Shown piece after piece: positions 1,879-11,728 of a stretch of 64,000 nucleotides of DNA. The translations under genes and the position numbers were made by a program. The DNA is from a virus, in IMG/VR virus record IMGVR_UViG_3300043410_001708, positions 42,270 through 106,269 of that record. One strand, 5' to 3'. The notes below the pieces were generated by a model. It did not search any database, was not told where the DNA came from, and saw only the letters and a program-made list of their open reading frames with translations. Position 1 is the first letter of the stretch. Every line of letters begins with the position of its first letter.

Positions 1879-2709
1879 ATGGATCCGTTCACACTTTTTG
1901 CCTTGGCCAACGGTGCAGTTGCCGCTGTGAAAAAAGGTTGTCAGTTATACAAAGATATTAAAGGTGCCGCTGGGGATGTTAAAGCAGTCCTCAAGGATTT
2001 GGACGACCAGTTCCACAAAAAGTATGAAGGTAAACCTGTGCCGCCTGCTGCTGCAAAGCAGTTACAGGAAGAAAAGGCTCGCATTAAAGAATTAAACAAG
2101 CGTAGTGAAGAAAGCACTAATATTTATACAGAGATAGGTGATTATCTTGGTCAATACTATGACAATTATTATAAGTGTTTAGCGGTACTTGAACAAGAAG
2201 AAAAACGTAGTGCAACAGAAGTATATACCGGCGGTGATAGTTTAGCCAAGCGTGCATTACAACGTGTTCTTATGCGTAAACAACTAGAAGCCATGGGCAA
2301 AGAATTACGTGAATTGATGATATATCAATCACCACCCGAACTTGGTGCATTATATACTGATGTTGAACTTATGACCAAAGAGTTGGGTGCTCAACAAAAG
2401 ATTCTTATTGCTAAACAGATGGAAGAACAAGCCAAAAAAGCAAAACTAAGAGCACAAAAAATTGAACATTATAAGATGGAGTTTGGTATGATTGTTGCGT
2501 TTCTTATTTTGTTTATTTTCATGGGTTTATTTTGGACTTGGTTGTATTATGATTCGAAGGAAAGACATCCACAAATATGGAATGGAACTTATCAAGCTGA
2601 ATTGGAAAAACAAAAAAGATATCAGGCTCAAAAAATTATGGATGCAATCAAATACCTGGACGAACAAAATTACGAAAATAATAAGAGGTTAATAACAAAT
2701 CAAGAATGA
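1879..2709 (+). CDS. Hypothetical coiled-coil protein with one transmembrane segment
   Basis: 276 aa ORF; hydrophobic FGMIVAFLILFIFMGLFWTWLYY; first gene of a plus-strand operon. Confidence 0.75.
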   Translation: MDPFTLFALANGAVAAVKKGCQLYKDIKGAAGDVKAVLKDLDDQFHKKYEGKPVPPAAAKQLQEEKARIKELNKRSEESTNIYTEIGDYLGQYYDNYYKCLAVLEQEEKRSATEVYTGGDSLAKRALQRVLMRKQLEAMGKELRELMIYQSPPELGALYTDVELMTKELGAQQKILIAKQMEEQAKKAKLRAQKIEHYKMEFGMIVAFLILFIFMGLFWTWLYYDSKERHPQIWNGTYQAELEKQKRYQAQKIMDAIKYLDEQNYENNKRLITNQE

Positions 2710-2846
2710 AAAGAAATAGATACACATTTTTAGAATGGGTATTTGATGATTTAGGCCTTGCTAAATTTTTATTATTTTTTTATCTTTTTTTATTGTTATT
2801 GGCAACTGGTATATTGTCACTGGTTTGGTGGTACACTAAAAGATGA
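2706..2846 (+). CDS. Small membrane peptide (46 aa), not in ORF track
   Basis: MKRNRYTFLEWVFDDLGLAKFLLFFYLFLLLLATGILSLVWWYTKR; ATGA overlaps with both flanking genes. Confidence 0.7.
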   Translation: MKRNRYTFLEWVFDDLGLAKFLLFFYLFLLLLATGILSLVWWYTKR

Positions 2847-4859: not shown

Positions 4860-4935
4860 ATATAACTATATATGCATCATTTTAAAACACACATAATGCA
4901 TTTTAAAATGAGGACTCTTGCGAGTCCCCATACCA

Positions 4936-6363
4936 TCACAATACTTTGTAACGGTCATCCATGATGGTTTTAAGCATCACAGATTCTGGTGTAAAGGTTT
5001 CTAAGTCACCCGCCAACAGTGGTTTTACGACTGCTGGTGAGAAACCAGATACCAATGCAGTACCAGAAGTGTCGAACTTTACTGGAGCGTTGCCGTATGC
5101 GGCATTCAAGTTCCAGAATACAACCTTTGGCAAAGTGTATCCTGCTTCTTTGTACTTACGTGCAATCATCTGCATAGCAGAGTCATCATGTCTAACGCAA
5201 GCGTTAAATTGCATGTCTGACAGAATCAATACCATCGCTGGCATTTCTTCTTGTGGCACGCCACCTTTTACTGCTACATCAAGGATTTTTGCAAATGCCT
5301 TGTGTAGGTCGGTAGACATACCCCAATCAGATTTAACCATTTGGTCAATCTTTTGATTGATGTTACCTTTCAAGTGCAACAATTCTGGATTGGTAGAGAA
5401 AGTTAGGAAGGTGTCCTTGAACTTGCCTTCATTCTTATCTGCCAAGTATAGTCCCAAAGAGACTGCTACTTCCAAACAGGTTAGACCTGATTTGGAACCA
5501 TAACCACCTGCAGCGCAGGTCATTGAACCAGAAACATCCACCAAAGGTAGAATGTTTGCATCGCCAACAAAGTTAGGCAAAGCCTCCCATTGTTTTTGCA
5601 CCAAGTCCAATTCGGTCTTGTCGAATTTCATGTAACCACCGATACGGCCTTTCAGCACATCGTATGGGAACACAGCACCTGCATTAACCTTAACTTCTGG
5701 ATTATCACCCTTAACCAACGAAGCAACATATGCTGCATAAGTTGGAGTGTTACGGTTAAAAGCCTTCTTGTAACGGGATGCCGCTACGGAAGGTACGTGT
5801 GAGAAATTGATGGAATCCCAGTCTTTCGCACACATTTGAGTTTCAACCACTTTGGTCATTTCAACCAAAGACTTACGGTAAAACTTTGGGGACATACCAA
5901 AGAACTGACGGATTTCAGCCGCTAGTTTACCTTGGCGAGGAGTCCACTTTGCAGCCAATCCATTCTTCGCACGAAGCGCATCACCCAACATAGTGAATGC
6001 TGCTGACTTCATAACATCAGAATCGAATACAAAAATGTCGTCCCAACGGCCCAATTCAGGAACCTTTGTCAACAATGCTTTTGCGGCTTCTACGTCATTC
6101 TTTTCCAAATAACGCAAGATAGTACGGAACGATTCACGTTCACCGGCACCACCACGAGCATCACGTAACCAAGCAGCAACACGCAAAGCGAGTTCACGGT
6201 TTTCTGCCATTGCAGCTGCGAAAGCAGGCACAATGTTTTTGCCACGGGAAGCACCTGCATTGTAGAACAAATCTACAACTGCATTAGCAGTGGACTTACG
6301 AGCCTTCATACCGTTTGCGGTACGGGCATCTTGATTAACAACGGCATCTACAAAAGTTGACAT
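4936..6363 (-). CDS. Ro60/TROVE-like helical domain + vWA protein (DUF2828-type)
   Basis: N-terminal DLF, RDARGGAGER, GRWDD, AKWTPR motifs; C-terminal vWA MIDAS DVSGSM...STD...ILSDMQF...FWNL. Confidence 0.8.
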   Translation of the reverse strand: MSTFVDAVVNQDARTANGMKARKSTANAVVDLFYNAGASRGKNIVPAFAAAMAENRELALRVAAWLRDARGGAGERESFRTILRYLEKNDVEAAKALLTKVPELGRWDDIFVFDSDVMKSAAFTMLGDALRAKNGLAAKWTPRQGKLAAEIRQFFGMSPKFYRKSLVEMTKVVETQMCAKDWDSINFSHVPSVAASRYKKAFNRNTPTYAAYVASLVKGDNPEVKVNAGAVFPYDVLKGRIGGYMKFDKTELDLVQKQWEALPNFVGDANILPLVDVSGSMTCAAGGYGSKSGLTCLEVAVSLGLYLADKNEGKFKDTFLTFSTNPELLHLKGNINQKIDQMVKSDWGMSTDLHKAFAKILDVAVKGGVPQEEMPAMVLILSDMQFNACVRHDDSAMQMIARKYKEAGYTLPKVVFWNLNAAYGNAPVKFDTSGTALVSGFSPAVVKPLLAGDLETFTPESVMLKTIMDDRYKVL

Positions 6364-6384
6364 AACTTACTCCTCATAAAAAAA

Positions 6385-6504
6385 CAACAGAATACATTTT
6401 TTAGCGCACTACCAATTGTGCTATTCACGCCGAAGCGTAAAACAGGATTCGAACCTGTAACCTCTCCGTTATAAGCGGAAAAATTGTTTGCTGTGAGTAT
6501 TCTA
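6385..6504 (-). ncRNA. Y-RNA-like element E1 carrying a circularly permuted tRNA-Ile(UAU)
   Basis: Terminal stem AGAATAC/GTATTCT, ACAGCAA motif; inside, in order: anticodon arm, T arm, acceptor closed by UUCG, D arm. Confidence 0.8.
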
Positions 6505-6508
6505 AAAA

Positions 6509-6664
6509 CAACAGGTTAGCTTTCTACTTTTTGTTTACAGTGAGAAATCGAAACTCACCTTCGTTAGGACCATTTCAATAAACACCTTCAAAGGTCGAAA
6601 CCTCCAGTGTTTACCATAGTTACCTAACAGTTCAGTATTATTGAATAATGCTGTAACTAACCTA
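6509..6664 (-). ncRNA. Y-RNA-like element E2
   Basis: Terminal stem AGGTTAG/CTAACCT, ACAGCA motif, TGTTG tail; multi-hairpin interior with T-arm-like GTGAG-TTTCGATTT-CTCAC. Confidence 0.7.
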
Positions 6665-6692
6665 AAACCTTTTCAATCTTTCAATACTGTGT

Positions 6693-6916: not shown

Positions 6917-6945
6917 ATTATATATGCTTTACAAACAATTGTCAA
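6917..6945 (-). promoter_or_regulatory. Sigma70 promoter for tRNA-Gly(GCC)/Thr(TGT)
   Basis: TTGACA-17-TATAAT. Confidence 0.85.
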
Positions 6946-8716: not shown

Positions 8717-8818
8717 CAACAGGATAGTTTTTTTACAGTGGGAATTGAACCCACAAGGTTTGCTTAGAAGGCAAATTGCGAACCATTCGCATGTGAATTT
8801 TTTGCTGAACCTATCCTA
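8717..8818 (-). ncRNA. Y-RNA-like element E3 carrying a tRNA-Arg(UCU) mimic
   Basis: Stem AGGATAG/CTATCCT, TCAGCAA; D-like arm, TTTGC-CTTCTAA-GCAAA, GTGGG-TTCAATT-CCCAC; no CCA. Confidence 0.8.
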
Positions 8819-8823
8819 AAACT

Positions 8824-9887: not shown

Positions 9888-9951
9888 CAACAGGATAGAT
9901 TTTACTTTTCAAGTTACAAGTTTGAAGTATTTTATTGCTGTTACTATCCTA
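9888..9951 (-). ncRNA. Y-RNA-like element E4 (minimal)
   Basis: Stem AGGATAG/CTATCCT, ACAGCAA, single hairpin with anticodon-like loop CTTGTAA. Confidence 0.75.
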
Positions 9952-9955
9952 AAAA

Positions 9956-10406: not shown

Positions 10407-10470
10407 CAACAGGATCGTTTTTGTCGCTAGACATCCAAAAGTTAGCTTGTTTATTGCTGAACCGATCCTA
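10407..10470 (-). ncRNA. Y-RNA-like element E5 (minimal)
   Basis: Stem AGGATCG/CGATCCT, TCAGCAA, TGTTG tail, small internal hairpin GCTA...TAGC. Confidence 0.75.
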
Positions 10471-10474
10471 AAAC

Positions 10475-11636: not shown

Positions 11637-11728
11637 TGGTACCAGCGGTGAGAATCGAACTCACTCAAGAACGCTAATCTGGCGCTAAAAGGTGTATAAG
11701 ACCTCTCTGACTACCAAGTCTCGCTGGC
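11637..11728 (-). tRNA. Non-canonical tRNA with TAT anticodon (Ile/AUA) and long variable arm
   Basis: Acceptor GCCAGCG/CGCTGGT-A-CCA, mini D arm GACT-TGGT-AGTC, loop CTTATAC, variable stem, normal T arm. Confidence 0.75.

What the first reader, a model, noticed from the sequence alone, without database searches (positions are those of the whole stretch)
6385..6504. Circularly permuted tRNA-Ile(UAU) with UUCG-sealed acceptor stem
Seen: inside E1 the order is anticodon arm TTCCG-CTTATAA-CGGAG, variable AGGTT, T arm ACAGG-TTCGAAT-CCTGT, acceptor 3' strand TTTACGC, TTCG loop, acceptor 5' strand GCGTGAA, TA, D arm GCAC-AATTGGTA-GTGC. This is a whole tRNA opened between the D and anticodon arms with its ends joined by a cUUCGg tetraloop, so it cannot be aminoacylated. 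Established: YrlA RNAs also have a loop-closed acceptor with T and D arms, but there the anticodon stem is replaced by the Ro-binding part. Inference: keeping a canonical anticodon loop suggests a non-chargeable decoy or substrate mimic for anticodon-directed enzymes. The U run after the element, just before the RBS, may also allow autoregulation of the Ro-like gene.
Basis: partly seen in the sequence, partly recalled or inferred. Interest (0 to 1): 0.82.

Follow-up and report, generated by a model that had tools for sequence, protein, structure and literature searches.

The report
Inside-out tRNA mimic, Ro60-like partner
Just in front of its Ro60-shaped protein gene, a freshwater T4-like phage encodes a small RNA that is a complete tRNA in re-ordered form (amino-acid end sealed, chain opened between the D and anticodon arms) mounted on a conserved "handle". 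It belongs to a large family of Y-RNA-like RNAs, not found in the papers or Rfam searched, that display tRNA parts and are probably mimics or decoys rather than working tRNAs.

Summary
Rejoined in tRNA order, it is called tRNA-Ile(UAU) by ARAGORN, while 0 of 1000 shuffles and the native order are not called.

All five helices covary in relatives, and the 15:48 Levitt pair covaries too. Twenty-two of 26 relatives keep an anticodon-type hairpin (at least 4 of 5 stem pairs, 7-nt loop), and 20 of those 22 have U33.

The element is not a stand-alone oddity. It is one cargo type of a modular RNA family with a common handle: a 7-bp closing stem, N3-CAGCAA, an A-rich tract and a GUUG tail. I found about 170 distinct members in relatives of this phage and five in this window. 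A family member lies just upstream of a DUF2828/DUF7788 gene in 77 of 79 related loci, and that protein's model matches Ro60 structures end to end.

It is therefore best read as a Y-RNA-like partner RNA, a new variant of the YrlA theme that keeps a true anticodon arm. The cUUCGg seal is not conserved. "Cannot be aminoacylated" is overstated, because M. smegmatis YrlA is opened by RNase P. The decoy function is plausible but untested. This scan has already noted the same handle family in at least 14 other genomes.

The parts
6497..6503 (-). Handle: 5' strand of the 7-bp closing stem (AGAAUAC), preceded by U-rich leader 6504-6505
   Evidence: Pairs with 6389-6395. 100% paired in 26 relatives, and 4 of 7 pairs change on both sides. 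Family consensus.
6488..6496 (-). Handle: 3-nt spacer (6496-6494) plus unpaired CAGCAA box (6493-6488)
   Evidence: CAGCA was a selection criterion of the scan, so its invariance is built in. The sixth base, not selected for, is A in 149 of 166 members. The spacer is 3 nt in 162 of 166. The box occupies the place of the GNCGAA Ro-binding motif of YrlA.
6481..6487 (-). 5' linker from handle to tRNA body
   Evidence: Variable in sequence and length among relatives.
6464..6480 (-). Anticodon arm: 5-bp stem, 7-nt loop CUUAUAA (anticodon UAU at 6473-6471)
   Evidence: All 5 pairs change on both sides in relatives. Among the 22 of 26 relatives with an anticodon-type hairpin, the loop keeps C32 (19), U33 (20), A37 (22) and A38 (22).
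6459..6463 (-). Class-I variable loop AGGUU (positions 44-48)
   Evidence: The last base covaries with D-loop base 15: A:U in 17, U:A in 5, G:C in 1, other in 3.
6442..6458 (-). T arm with UUCGAAU loop
   Evidence: 100% paired, and 3 of 5 pairs change on both sides. Matches the T arm of the Rfam YrlA and tRNA models.
6424..6441 (-). 7-bp acceptor stem sealed by UUCG (loop 6434-6431)
   Evidence: All 7 pairs change on both sides in 26 relatives. The sealing loop is variable, 3-14 nt.
6405..6423 (-). U8 A9, D arm (4 bp, loop AAUUGGUA), G26
   Evidence: 100% paired. A14, G18 and G19 are present.
6385..6404 (-). Handle: A-rich 3' linker (6404-6396), closing-stem 3' strand (6395-6389), GUUG tail (6388-6385)
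   Evidence: Family consensus: A-rich tract, stem, G-U-U-(G/A), then U-rich.
6361..6384 (-). U7 run, Shine-Dalgarno GAGGAG (6375-6370) and start codon of the Ro60-like gene
   Evidence: Read directly. The last family element ends 11-38 nt before the start codon in 68 of 77 loci.
4936..6363 (-). Partner gene: 475-aa DUF2828/DUF7788 protein with Ro60 fold
   Evidence: Pfam. PHROG 850 'RNA-binding protein'. AF2 model pLDDT 69.8. The top 12 Foldseek PDB hits are all Ro60/Rsr/TROVE, full length, with best TM 0.52 to Thermus phage phiLo Ro60.
6509..6665 (-). Second family member in tandem (151-nt cargo), preceded by a promoter-like site at 6721-6693
   Evidence: Same handle. R1 hit at 26.7 bits. Promoter scan.

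Best explanation
The element is a non-coding, Y-RNA-like partner RNA of the phage's Ro60-fold protein, which is encoded immediately downstream. It has two modules.

(1) A conserved handle: a 7-bp closing stem, an unpaired N3-CAGCAA on the 5' side, an A-rich tract on the 3' side and a GUUG(U)n tail. By analogy with the Ro60-binding stem and GNCGAA motif of YrlA, this is inferred to be the docking site for the Ro-like ring.

(2) A cargo that is a complete class-I tRNA body in circularly permuted order. The chain enters at position 27 and leaves after position 26, and the acceptor end is closed by a short loop. The handle therefore projects from the hinge of the L, leaving both the elbow and the anticodon loop exposed.

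Shown: the fold, its conservation and covariation, family membership, and the tight genomic coupling to the Ro60-fold gene. Inferred: the RNP presents a tRNA look-alike, anticodon loop included, to proteins that read tRNAs. The most likely role is as a tether or competitive decoy for anticodon-loop-directed enzymes such as host anticodon nucleases or modification enzymes, as part of a panel of such RNAs with different 'anticodons'. The handle's position against the ribosome-binding site may also let the protein limit its own translation. The permuted order most likely arose by a phase shift in a tandem array of handle-bearing tRNA-like genes.
For: Fold: ARAGORN calls the re-permuted window element, and all 26 re-permuted relatives, as tRNAs. 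Controls are negative. Covariation is seen in all five helices, and the Levitt 15:48 pair covaries.

Family: about 170 distinct members share the handle in L001-L080, and five lie in this window.

Partner: 77 of 79 loci with a homologous gene have a member just upstream. The protein model matches Ro60 structures end to end. Rfam YrlA aligns over its full length at E 2.4e-6.

Anticodon mimicry across the family: 76 of 167 cargos hold a 5-bp/7-nt hairpin with U33 and R37, against 9.9 +/- 3.0 in shuffles. Among 55 distinct hairpins there are 24 different triplets. A34 occurs in only 4 of 55 although A makes up 37% of the cargo. C32 occurs in 36 and A38 in 44. In one subfamily of 9, the stem, C32, U33, A37, A38 and the T and D arms are constant while the triplet takes 6 values.

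Origin: Cronobacter phage S13 carries the same module as an internal hairpin in CCA-ended tRNA-like genes. Two sealing loops (S13 unit 3 and L111) begin with NCCA.

Expression (weak): contigs from metatranscriptome libraries of separate studies cover the element, and one bridges it to the ORF.
Against: No binding, expression-end or function data exist. The RNA-library evidence is contigs only and could include DNA.

The handle lacks the YrlA GNCGAA motif, and the Rfam score is below gathering (36.5 against 69). The protein has no sequence-level TROVE match, so 'Ro-like binding' rests on fold and synteny. The protein model is of moderate confidence (pLDDT 69.8).

A free-varying triplet could mean absence of constraint rather than a decoy panel. 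Some relatives replace the 7-nt loop with 4-6 nt loops (L037, L113, L120:2095), so the anticodon loop is not indispensable. No anticodon nuclease or host is known for this phage.
Confidence: 0.6

Rival explanations
1. The RNP is the same, but the tRNA body is only a very stable, nuclease-resistant cap, as Chen et al. proposed for YrlA. On this reading the anticodon arm is inherited baggage from the tRNA gene it came from and has no anticodon-directed role.
For: Chen 2014 offers this reading for YrlA. Triplets 34-36 vary freely. Some relatives have 4-6 nt loops in that hairpin. The elements lie inside tRNA arrays, where tRNA fragments are the obvious raw material.
Against: C32, U33, A37, A38 and the 5-bp/7-nt geometry are kept across very different stems and cargo types, including short members that carry nothing but this hairpin. 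A34 avoidance mirrors real tRNAs. The element is not a recent copy of any of the phage's own tRNAs: at most 52 identical positions, against a background 95th percentile of 53.
Confidence: 0.2
2. It is a precursor that RNase P opens at the sealed acceptor. Trimming and CCA addition would then give a two-piece, possibly chargeable, tRNA-Ile(UAU)-like molecule held together by the handle.
For: M. smegmatis YrlA, the one with a 7-bp sealed acceptor, is cut by RNase P in vitro and in vivo and gains CCA. This element has a 7-bp acceptor with G1:C72. Phage S13 has open, CCA-ended versions carrying the same module.
Against: The seal here is a 4-nt UUCG loop with no CCA and no single-stranded leader. 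The family includes many members with no acceptor at all. No CCA-adding enzyme was found in the 106-kb record, although the record is incomplete. The phage already has a full tRNA set.
Confidence: 0.1
3. Its main role is cis-acting, as a structured leader or processing signal of the Ro-like mRNA. It would act through translational autoregulation by the protein binding next to the ribosome-binding site, or as a punctuation site that separates the mRNA from the tRNA array.
For: The handle ends 11-38 nt before the start codon in 68 of 77 loci, and the Shine-Dalgarno sequence sometimes starts directly after the stem. There is no room for a promoter between the element and the ORF. A contig from an RNA library bridges the ORF and the element.
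Against: Identical handles occur far from the gene among the tRNAs (8717-8819, 9888-9952, 10407-10471). In phage S13 they lie downstream of the gene. A cis role therefore cannot explain the family, although it is compatible as a second function.
Confidence: 0.08
4. It is a non-functional recombination scar or pseudo-tRNA produced by rearrangement in the tRNA array.
For: It lies in a region of tandem tRNA genes, and the NCCA fossils in some sealing loops show that rearrangement happened.
Against: The element persists, with compensatory changes in every helix, in phages whose partner proteins are only 68-99% identical.
Confidence: 0.02

Closest known systems
YrlA-type bacterial and phage Y RNAs with Ro60/Rsr (Rfam RF02553; Chen et al. 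2014, PMC4201824)
   Same: Small RNA encoded next to a Ro60-fold gene. It has a protein-binding closing stem with a conserved unpaired 5' motif. The T arm and D arm carry tRNA-invariant bases and flank a loop-sealed acceptor-like stem. The Levitt pair covaries. Tandem Y RNAs are processed from one transcript.
   Different: In YrlA the Ro-binding stem takes the place of the anticodon stem. Here a separate, canonical anticodon arm plus a 5-nt variable loop is kept, and the handle leaves at position 26/27, giving a five-way junction. The motif is CAGCAA, not GNCGAA. The partner is DUF2828/DUF7788, not Pfam TROVE. The Rfam score of 36.5 is below the gathering score of 69.
Mycobacterium smegmatis YrlA (Chen et al. 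2014)
   Same: A 7-bp sealed 'acceptor' in a Y RNA encoded 5' of the Ro60 gene.
   Different: That RNA is shown to be cut by RNase P and CCA-added. Nothing is known here, and the loop is a tight UUCG.
Deinococcus radiodurans Yrn1
   Same: A Y RNA that can be drawn with an 'anticodon arm' of 5 bp.
   Different: Its loop has 6 nt, it has no V arm and its D arm is doubtful. Here the loop has the full 7-nt Y32-U33-NNN-A37-A38 pattern.
Thermus phage phiLo Ro60 with Yrl1/Yrl2 (PMC12135203; PDB 9KOP, 9L5Y)
   Same: A phage-encoded Ro60-fold protein, the best structural match to this one (TM 0.52), with two Y-like RNAs upstream of its gene.
   Different: The phiLo RNAs have a CGAA bulge and are described as stem-bulge-stem RNAs. 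No tRNA cargo is reported for them.
Circularly permuted tRNA genes of red and green algae and two-piece (permuted) tmRNA genes (from my own knowledge, not checked here)
   Same: The 3' half of a tRNA-like fold is encoded upstream of the 5' half, and origin by tandem duplication is the usual model.
   Different: Those genes are matured into working tRNA or tmRNA with free acceptor ends. Here the acceptor is sealed, the ends are held by a protein-binding handle, and sister RNAs carry only fragments of tRNA.

Membership tests
YrlA (Rfam RF02553) | Score at or above the Rfam gathering threshold (69 bits) | tested here: not met
   36.5 bits, E 2.4e-6, full model length 1-114. No hit in the gathering-threshold scan.
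YrlA (Chen et al. 2014) | Encoded adjacent to a Ro60 (TROVE) orthologue | tested here: inconclusive
   The adjacent gene has the Ro60 fold by Foldseek. It matches Pfam DUF2828/DUF7788, not TROVE, and has no sequence hit to Ro60 chains in the PDB.
YrlA (Chen et al. 2014) | GNCGAAN0-1G motif near the 5' end | tested here: not met
   No CGAA in 6505-6481. CAGCAA occupies the analogous unpaired 5' position.
YrlA (Chen et al. 2014) | T and D arms with tRNA-invariant bases flanking a sealed acceptor-like stem, with tertiary pairs possible | tested here: met
YrlA (Chen et al. 2014) | The protein-binding stem stands in for the anticodon stem | tested here: not met
   A separate 5-bp/7-nt anticodon arm followed by a 5-nt variable loop is present and covaries. 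The handle joins at position 26/27.
tRNA (RF00005 / ARAGORN) | Cloverleaf in standard 5'-3' order with free acceptor ends | tested here: not met
   Not called in native order. Rfam tRNA gives only a partial 24.2-bit match, below the 29-bit threshold.
tRNA (RF00005 / ARAGORN) | All four arms, 7-nt anticodon loop, variable loop and conserved tertiary bases once the order is restored | tested here: met
   tRNA-Ile(tat) is called with 0-3 nt linkers. All 26 relatives are called. 0 of 1000 shuffles are called.
Permuted tRNA genes that mature into working tRNAs | Processing to a tRNA with free 5' end and 3' CCA, followed by aminoacylation | not testable with these tools
   Only contigs of RNA libraries were available, with no read ends. 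There is no CCA in the sealing loop.
CAGCAA-handle Y-like RNAs of DUF2828 phages (family defined in this scan, not in the literature searched) | 7-bp covarying closing stem, 3-nt spacer, CAGCAA, A-rich 3' tract, GUUG tail, located near a DUF2828 gene or in its tRNA array | tested here: met

The most novel reading that the evidence does not exclude
Phages with a Ro60-like (DUF2828) protein deploy a programmable panel of handle-borne anticodon-loop mimics, ranging from bare anticodon hairpins to whole inside-out tRNAs like this one. As Ro-like RNPs, these would soak up or misdirect host tRNA-targeting immunity (anticodon nucleases and related effectors). This would be an RNA-decoy counter-defence that complements the phage's own tRNA array.
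Probability: 0.25. Interest if true: 0.85.

Novelty: new variant of a known kind. Interest (0 to 1): 0.62.

Why it matters
Ro60/Y-RNA particles are conserved from bacteria to humans, yet the role of the tRNA-like part of bacterial Y RNAs is still open.

This element and its family show that the cargo on a Ro-type handle can be swapped. It can be an anticodon hairpin alone, a tRNA without its acceptor, a YrlA-like body, or a whole tRNA opened at position 26 or at the variable loop. Anticodon-loop architecture is what is most often kept, which points experiments at anticodon-directed partners.

The finding also links an uncharacterised Pfam family (DUF2828/DUF7788), abundant in freshwater phages and present in metatranscriptome libraries, to Ro60 biology.

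Finally, it explains odd 'tRNA-OTHER' or over-long 'tRNA-Ser' annotations in cultured phages such as Cronobacter phage S13, which offers a laboratory system for testing.

Tried and rejected
Known RNA families: apart from the sub-threshold YrlA match, nothing in Rfam fits the element or its short sisters.

Sequence searches of the protein against PDB chains, both as a single sequence and as a 22-sequence profile, gave no Ro60 hit. Only the fold search did.

Pairings suggested by the single-sequence MFE are not kept in relatives, and the second would destroy the variable loop and Levitt pair, so both were dropped. These were AGC of the CAGCAA box with GCU after the D arm, and extension of the anticodon stem into the U-run and variable loop.

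A CAGC:GUUG pseudoknot between the box and the 3' tail has no compensatory support. CCGC variants keep GUUG, and members ending in CCUGAA keep CAGCAA.

Recent copying from one of the phage's 28 tRNAs is not supported, since similarity is at background level.

RtcB, Rnl2-type and Rnl1-type RNA ligases and the CCA-adding enzyme were not found in the 106-kb record. The record is about 63% complete, and the Rnl1 control rang nowhere, so this says little.

The first broad DNA pattern scan of viral contigs was too loose. Most loci were chance hits, and only about 15 carried true members after CM filtering.

Ochrobactrum phage vB_OspM_OC (locus L201) gave no R1 hit near its Ro-like gene. T4 rnaC/rnaD gave no handle hit.

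Metatranscriptome runs were available only as contigs. They show presence in RNA libraries, not ends, strand or level.

Literature searches for DUF2828, for permuted tRNA in phages, and for anticodon-nuclease decoys found no description of this family.

Full report
**1. What is there**

The element lies on the minus strand. Read 5' to 3' from 6505 to 6385 it runs as follows:
- a UU leader
- a 7-nt stem strand
- a 3-nt spacer
- the box CAGCAA
- a 7-nt linker
- a 5-bp hairpin with the 7-nt loop CUUAUAA
- five bases, AGGUU
- a T arm with loop UUCGAAU
- a 7-bp stem closed by UUCG
- UA
- a 4-bp D arm with loop AAUUGGUA
- G
- an A-rich linker
- the complementary 7-nt stem strand
- GUUG

A run of seven U follows, then GAGGAG and the ATG of a 475-codon ORF (6363-4936). 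In native order neither ARAGORN nor the Rfam tRNA model calls a tRNA here.

**2. Is it a tRNA turned inside out, and is that more than chance?**

I rejoined the two halves in tRNA order inside a script: acceptor 5' strand through the D arm, then a 0-3 nt linker, then the anticodon arm through the acceptor 3' strand.
- ARAGORN called a full cloverleaf, tRNA-Ile(tat), with every linker length.
- None of 1000 dinucleotide shuffles of the same letters was called.
- Of the 72 circular rotations, only those within a few bases of the canonical start were called.
- The native order was not called.
- The single-sequence fold recovers the same hairpins (-35.8 kcal/mol, z = -2.9).

**3. Relatives**

The downstream protein has 243 relatives in IMG/VR contigs. 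The best 80 loci (68-99% identity) were fetched. A family member lies just upstream of the gene in 77 of 79 usable loci.

A covariance model built from 14 full-length relatives found 26 distinct elements with the same five-helix layout, at 84-136 bits.

| Alignment | Cells paired | Shuffled | Pairs (of 28) changed on both sides | Slid registers |
|---|---|---|---|---|
| Plain MAFFT, 14 sequences | 97.7% | 72.3% (0 of 500 reach it) | 19 | 29-52% |
| Model-fitted, 26 sequences | 96.5% | 65.0% | 22 | 33-50% |

In the MAFFT alignment all five pairs of the anticodon stem change on both sides. In the model-fitted alignment every helix shows compensatory change.

The base before the T stem (position 48) covaries with the second D-loop base (position 15): A:U 17 times, U:A 5, G:C 1, and 3 exceptions. 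This is the Levitt pair. It fixes the five bases after the hairpin as a class-I variable loop, and therefore fixes the hairpin as the anticodon arm rather than a YrlA-type 'V' arm.

All 26 relatives, once re-permuted, are called tRNAs by ARAGORN.
- 22 have an anticodon-type hairpin (at least 4 of 5 stem pairs, 7-nt loop).
- Among those 22, loop counts are C32 19, U33 20, A37 22 and A38 22.
- Three relatives (L037, L113, L120:2095) have 4-6 nt loops instead.

**4.

- **The seal is not conserved.** The cUUCGg seal is found only here and in L005. Relatives use UUCAU, ACUA, AGU, UUGGUC and others, from 3 to 14 nt.
- **"Cannot be aminoacylated" goes too far.** Chen et al. (2014) showed that M. smegmatis YrlA, the YrlA with a 7-bp sealed acceptor, is cleaved by RNase P in vitro and in vivo and acquires CCA. 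This element also has a 7-bp acceptor, so opening is untested rather than excluded.
- **It is not a recent copy of a phage tRNA.** The best match among the phage's 28 tRNAs has 52 identical positions, within the background (mean 39, 95th percentile 53).

**5. The larger picture: a modular family on a common handle**

A scan for the closing stem plus box found about 250 elements. Of these, 204 are distinct sequences, and 167 pass the stricter handle filter in L001-L080 and this window. Five lie in this window:
- 6385-6505
- 6509-6665
- 8717-8819
- 9888-9952
- 10407-10471

These were confirmed on the whole 106-kb record.

The handle consensus is a U-rich leader, a 7-bp stem (positions 4, 6 and 7 covary), a 3-nt spacer in 162 of 166 members, CAGCAA, the cargo, an A-rich tract, the stem's second strand, and G-U-U-(G/A) followed by U-rich sequence.

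Cargos differ widely:
- a bare 5-bp/7-nt hairpin (50-62 nt elements)
- D-like hairpin + anticodon arm + T arm, with the handle replacing the acceptor (8717-8819)
- T + sealed acceptor + D with a YrlA-like layout (e.g. L014, L070)
- the full permuted tRNA opened at 26/27 (this element)
- a full tRNA opened at the variable region (L045:2548, L140:2835, L148:10526)
- larger folds

**6. Anticodon-loop mimicry is the commonest shared trait of the cargos**

- Of 167 distinct elements, 76 contain a perfect 5-bp/7-nt hairpin with U at loop position 2 and a purine at position 6 (T loops excluded). Composition-matched shuffles give 9.9 +/- 3.0, with a maximum of 19.
- Among 55 distinct such hairpins there are 24 different triplets.
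- Position 34 is A in only 4 of 55, although A makes up 37% of cargo bases, and one of those four is ACG. C32 occurs in 36 and A38 in 44.
- U34 with U36 occurs 17 times against 3.6 expected.
- In one subfamily of nine permuted tRNAs, the anticodon stem, C32, U33, A37, A38 and the T and D arms are constant. The triplet takes six values and the acceptor stem changes by compensatory substitutions.

This shows selection for anticodon-loop architecture. Whether the triplets are under diversifying selection or are merely unconstrained cannot be decided from these data.

**7. The partner protein**

- The ORF matches Pfam DUF7788 (6.6e-47) and DUF2828 (1.3e-20), with no TROVE hit, and PHROG 850 'RNA-binding protein'.
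- Sequence searches against PDB chains found no Ro60.
- An AlphaFold2 model from 22 homologues has pLDDT 69.8 and shows a helical repeat region followed by an alpha/beta domain.
- The model's 12 best Foldseek matches are all Ro60/Rsr/TROVE chains, aligned over about 500 columns (E 3e-6 to 9e-4). The best TM-score is 0.52, to Thermus phage phiLo Ro60. The next matches are vWA/MIDAS domains.
- The depositors of Ochrobactrum phage vB_OspM_OC reached the same annotation by HHpred.

The phiLo protein binds two Y-like RNAs encoded upstream of its gene (PMC12135203). Chen et al. reported YrlA-like RNAs beside Ro60 in over 250 bacteria and phages. Iyer et al. regard TROVE proteins in jumbo phages as RNA-repair platforms with a tRNA-like partner.

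**8. Context and expression**

- The record is a T4-like myovirus from freshwater metagenomes. It carries clamp loader, gp46-like nuclease, portal, sheath and baseplate genes, and is 63% complete.
- The element sits at the 3' end of a 28-gene tRNA array.
- Scattered through that array, besides the four other handle RNAs, are a calcineurin-like phosphoesterase and an RNase H-like (PF04308) protein. A GroES-like gene lies just downstream of the Ro-like gene, and a SAM-dependent methyltransferase lies beside the array.
- A promoter-like site (TTGACT-17-TACAAT, 6721-6693) precedes the tandem pair E2-E1. There is no room for a promoter between E1 and the ORF.
- The last family element ends 11-38 nt before the start codon in 68 of 77 loci (median 23). 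Protein binding to the handle could therefore occlude the ribosome-binding site. That is an inference.
- Contigs from metatranscriptome libraries of separate studies cover the element (6378-6682 and 6445-6592). One spans 4931-6401, joining the ORF to the 3' part of the element. These are contigs, so they show neither ends nor strand, and DNA carry-over cannot be excluded.

**9. Origin**

In the cultured Cronobacter phage S13, just downstream of its DUF2828 gene and behind a sigma-70-like promoter, lie two tandem genes annotated 'tRNA-Ser' (121 nt) and 'tRNA-OTHER' (113 nt).
- Both have open 7-bp acceptor stems with NCCA ends.
- Both carry the same module as an internal hairpin followed by AUU-CAGCA.
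- In one the module sits between G26 and an anticodon arm with loop AUUCCAA. This is the unpermuted form of the present element.
- In the other it sits inside the anticodon loop.
- A third unit is permuted, and its sealing loop begins ACCA. The sealing loop of L111 begins GCCA.

These fossils fit the classical route to circular permutation: a tandem array read in a shifted phase.

**10. Mechanism, with odds**

| Reading | Probability |
|---|---|
| Y-RNA-like partner of the Ro60-fold protein, displaying a tRNA mimic | about 0.85 |
| The display serves to tether or decoy proteins that read the anticodon loop or the tRNA body | about 0.6 overall (0.25 for the specific anti-defence decoy-panel version) |
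| tRNA fold only as a stable cap | 0.2 |
| RNase P-opened two-piece tRNA | 0.1 |
| Mainly a cis leader | 0.08 |
| Recombination scar | 0.02 |

**11. Novelty**

I found no paper on DUF2828 in this context and none on this handle, and no Rfam family fits. The principle, a tRNA-mimicking Y RNA beside a phage Ro60, is known (Chen 2014). What is new:
- the retained canonical anticodon arm with the break at 26/27
- the CAGCAA handle
- the DUF2828 partner
- the interchangeable tRNA-part cargos

I therefore class it as a new variant of a known kind.

Earlier notes of this scan describe the same handle family in this genome and in at least 14 others. They agree with what I found independently here.

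Noticed in passing
window 8717-8819 (-): A family member whose cargo is an unpermuted tRNA-like body: a D-like hairpin, an anticodon arm with loop CUUCUAA, and a T arm. The handle replaces the acceptor stem. Rfam scores it as tRNA (35.8 bits at 8730-8798) but ARAGORN does not call it, so it could be mis-annotated as a tRNA.
   Followed up: partly
window 6509-6665 (-): A 151-nt family member in tandem with the finding. It has several hairpins, including a T-loop-like UUUCGAUUU hairpin. This cargo type recurs in many loci (e.g. L001:2698, L042:285) and is unexplained.
   Followed up: no
window 9888-9952 (-) and 10407-10471 (-): Two short family members between tRNA genes. The first carries a hairpin whose 9-nt loop contains CUUGUAA. 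The cargo hairpin of the second is weak.
   Followed up: partly
L200 (Cronobacter phage S13, NC_028773) about 2324-2760 (-): The genes annotated 'tRNA-Ser' (121 nt) and 'tRNA-OTHER' (113 nt) are CCA-ended tRNA-like genes carrying the CAGCA module as an internal hairpin. A third unit is permuted and has a sealing loop that begins ACCA. This is a cultured system in which the family could be tested.
   Followed up: partly
L045:2548-2672, L052:965-1089, L140:2835-2958, L148:10526-10645(-): A second permutation topology: hairpin, T arm, sealed acceptor, D arm, then the anticodon arm last. The handle therefore leaves at the variable-loop position instead of at 26/27.
   Followed up: partly
window 11637-11728 (-): The gene ARAGORN calls tRNA-Ile(tat) is 92 nt long with a long extra arm and loop CUUAUAC. 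That is unusual for an Ile tRNA, and the Rfam gathering scan did not list it.
   Followed up: no
window 6917-6945 (-): A perfect sigma-70 consensus promoter (TTGACA-17-TATAAT) lies between tRNA-Leu(taa) and tRNA-Gly(gcc), inside the tRNA array.
   Followed up: no
window 4936-6363: In four freshwater metatranscriptome libraries, contig word depth over the Ro-like ORF is tens to hundreds of times that of the flanks (up to about 10,000 against 6-60). Strain mixtures and contig-level depth make this only a hint of high expression.
   Followed up: no
L202 (phage T4) 5054-5172 (-): T4 species 2 RNA (rnaD) contains a short hairpin followed by ACAGCAG near its CCA end, faintly reminiscent of the internal handle. 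The family model gave no hit, so this may be coincidence.
   Followed up: partly
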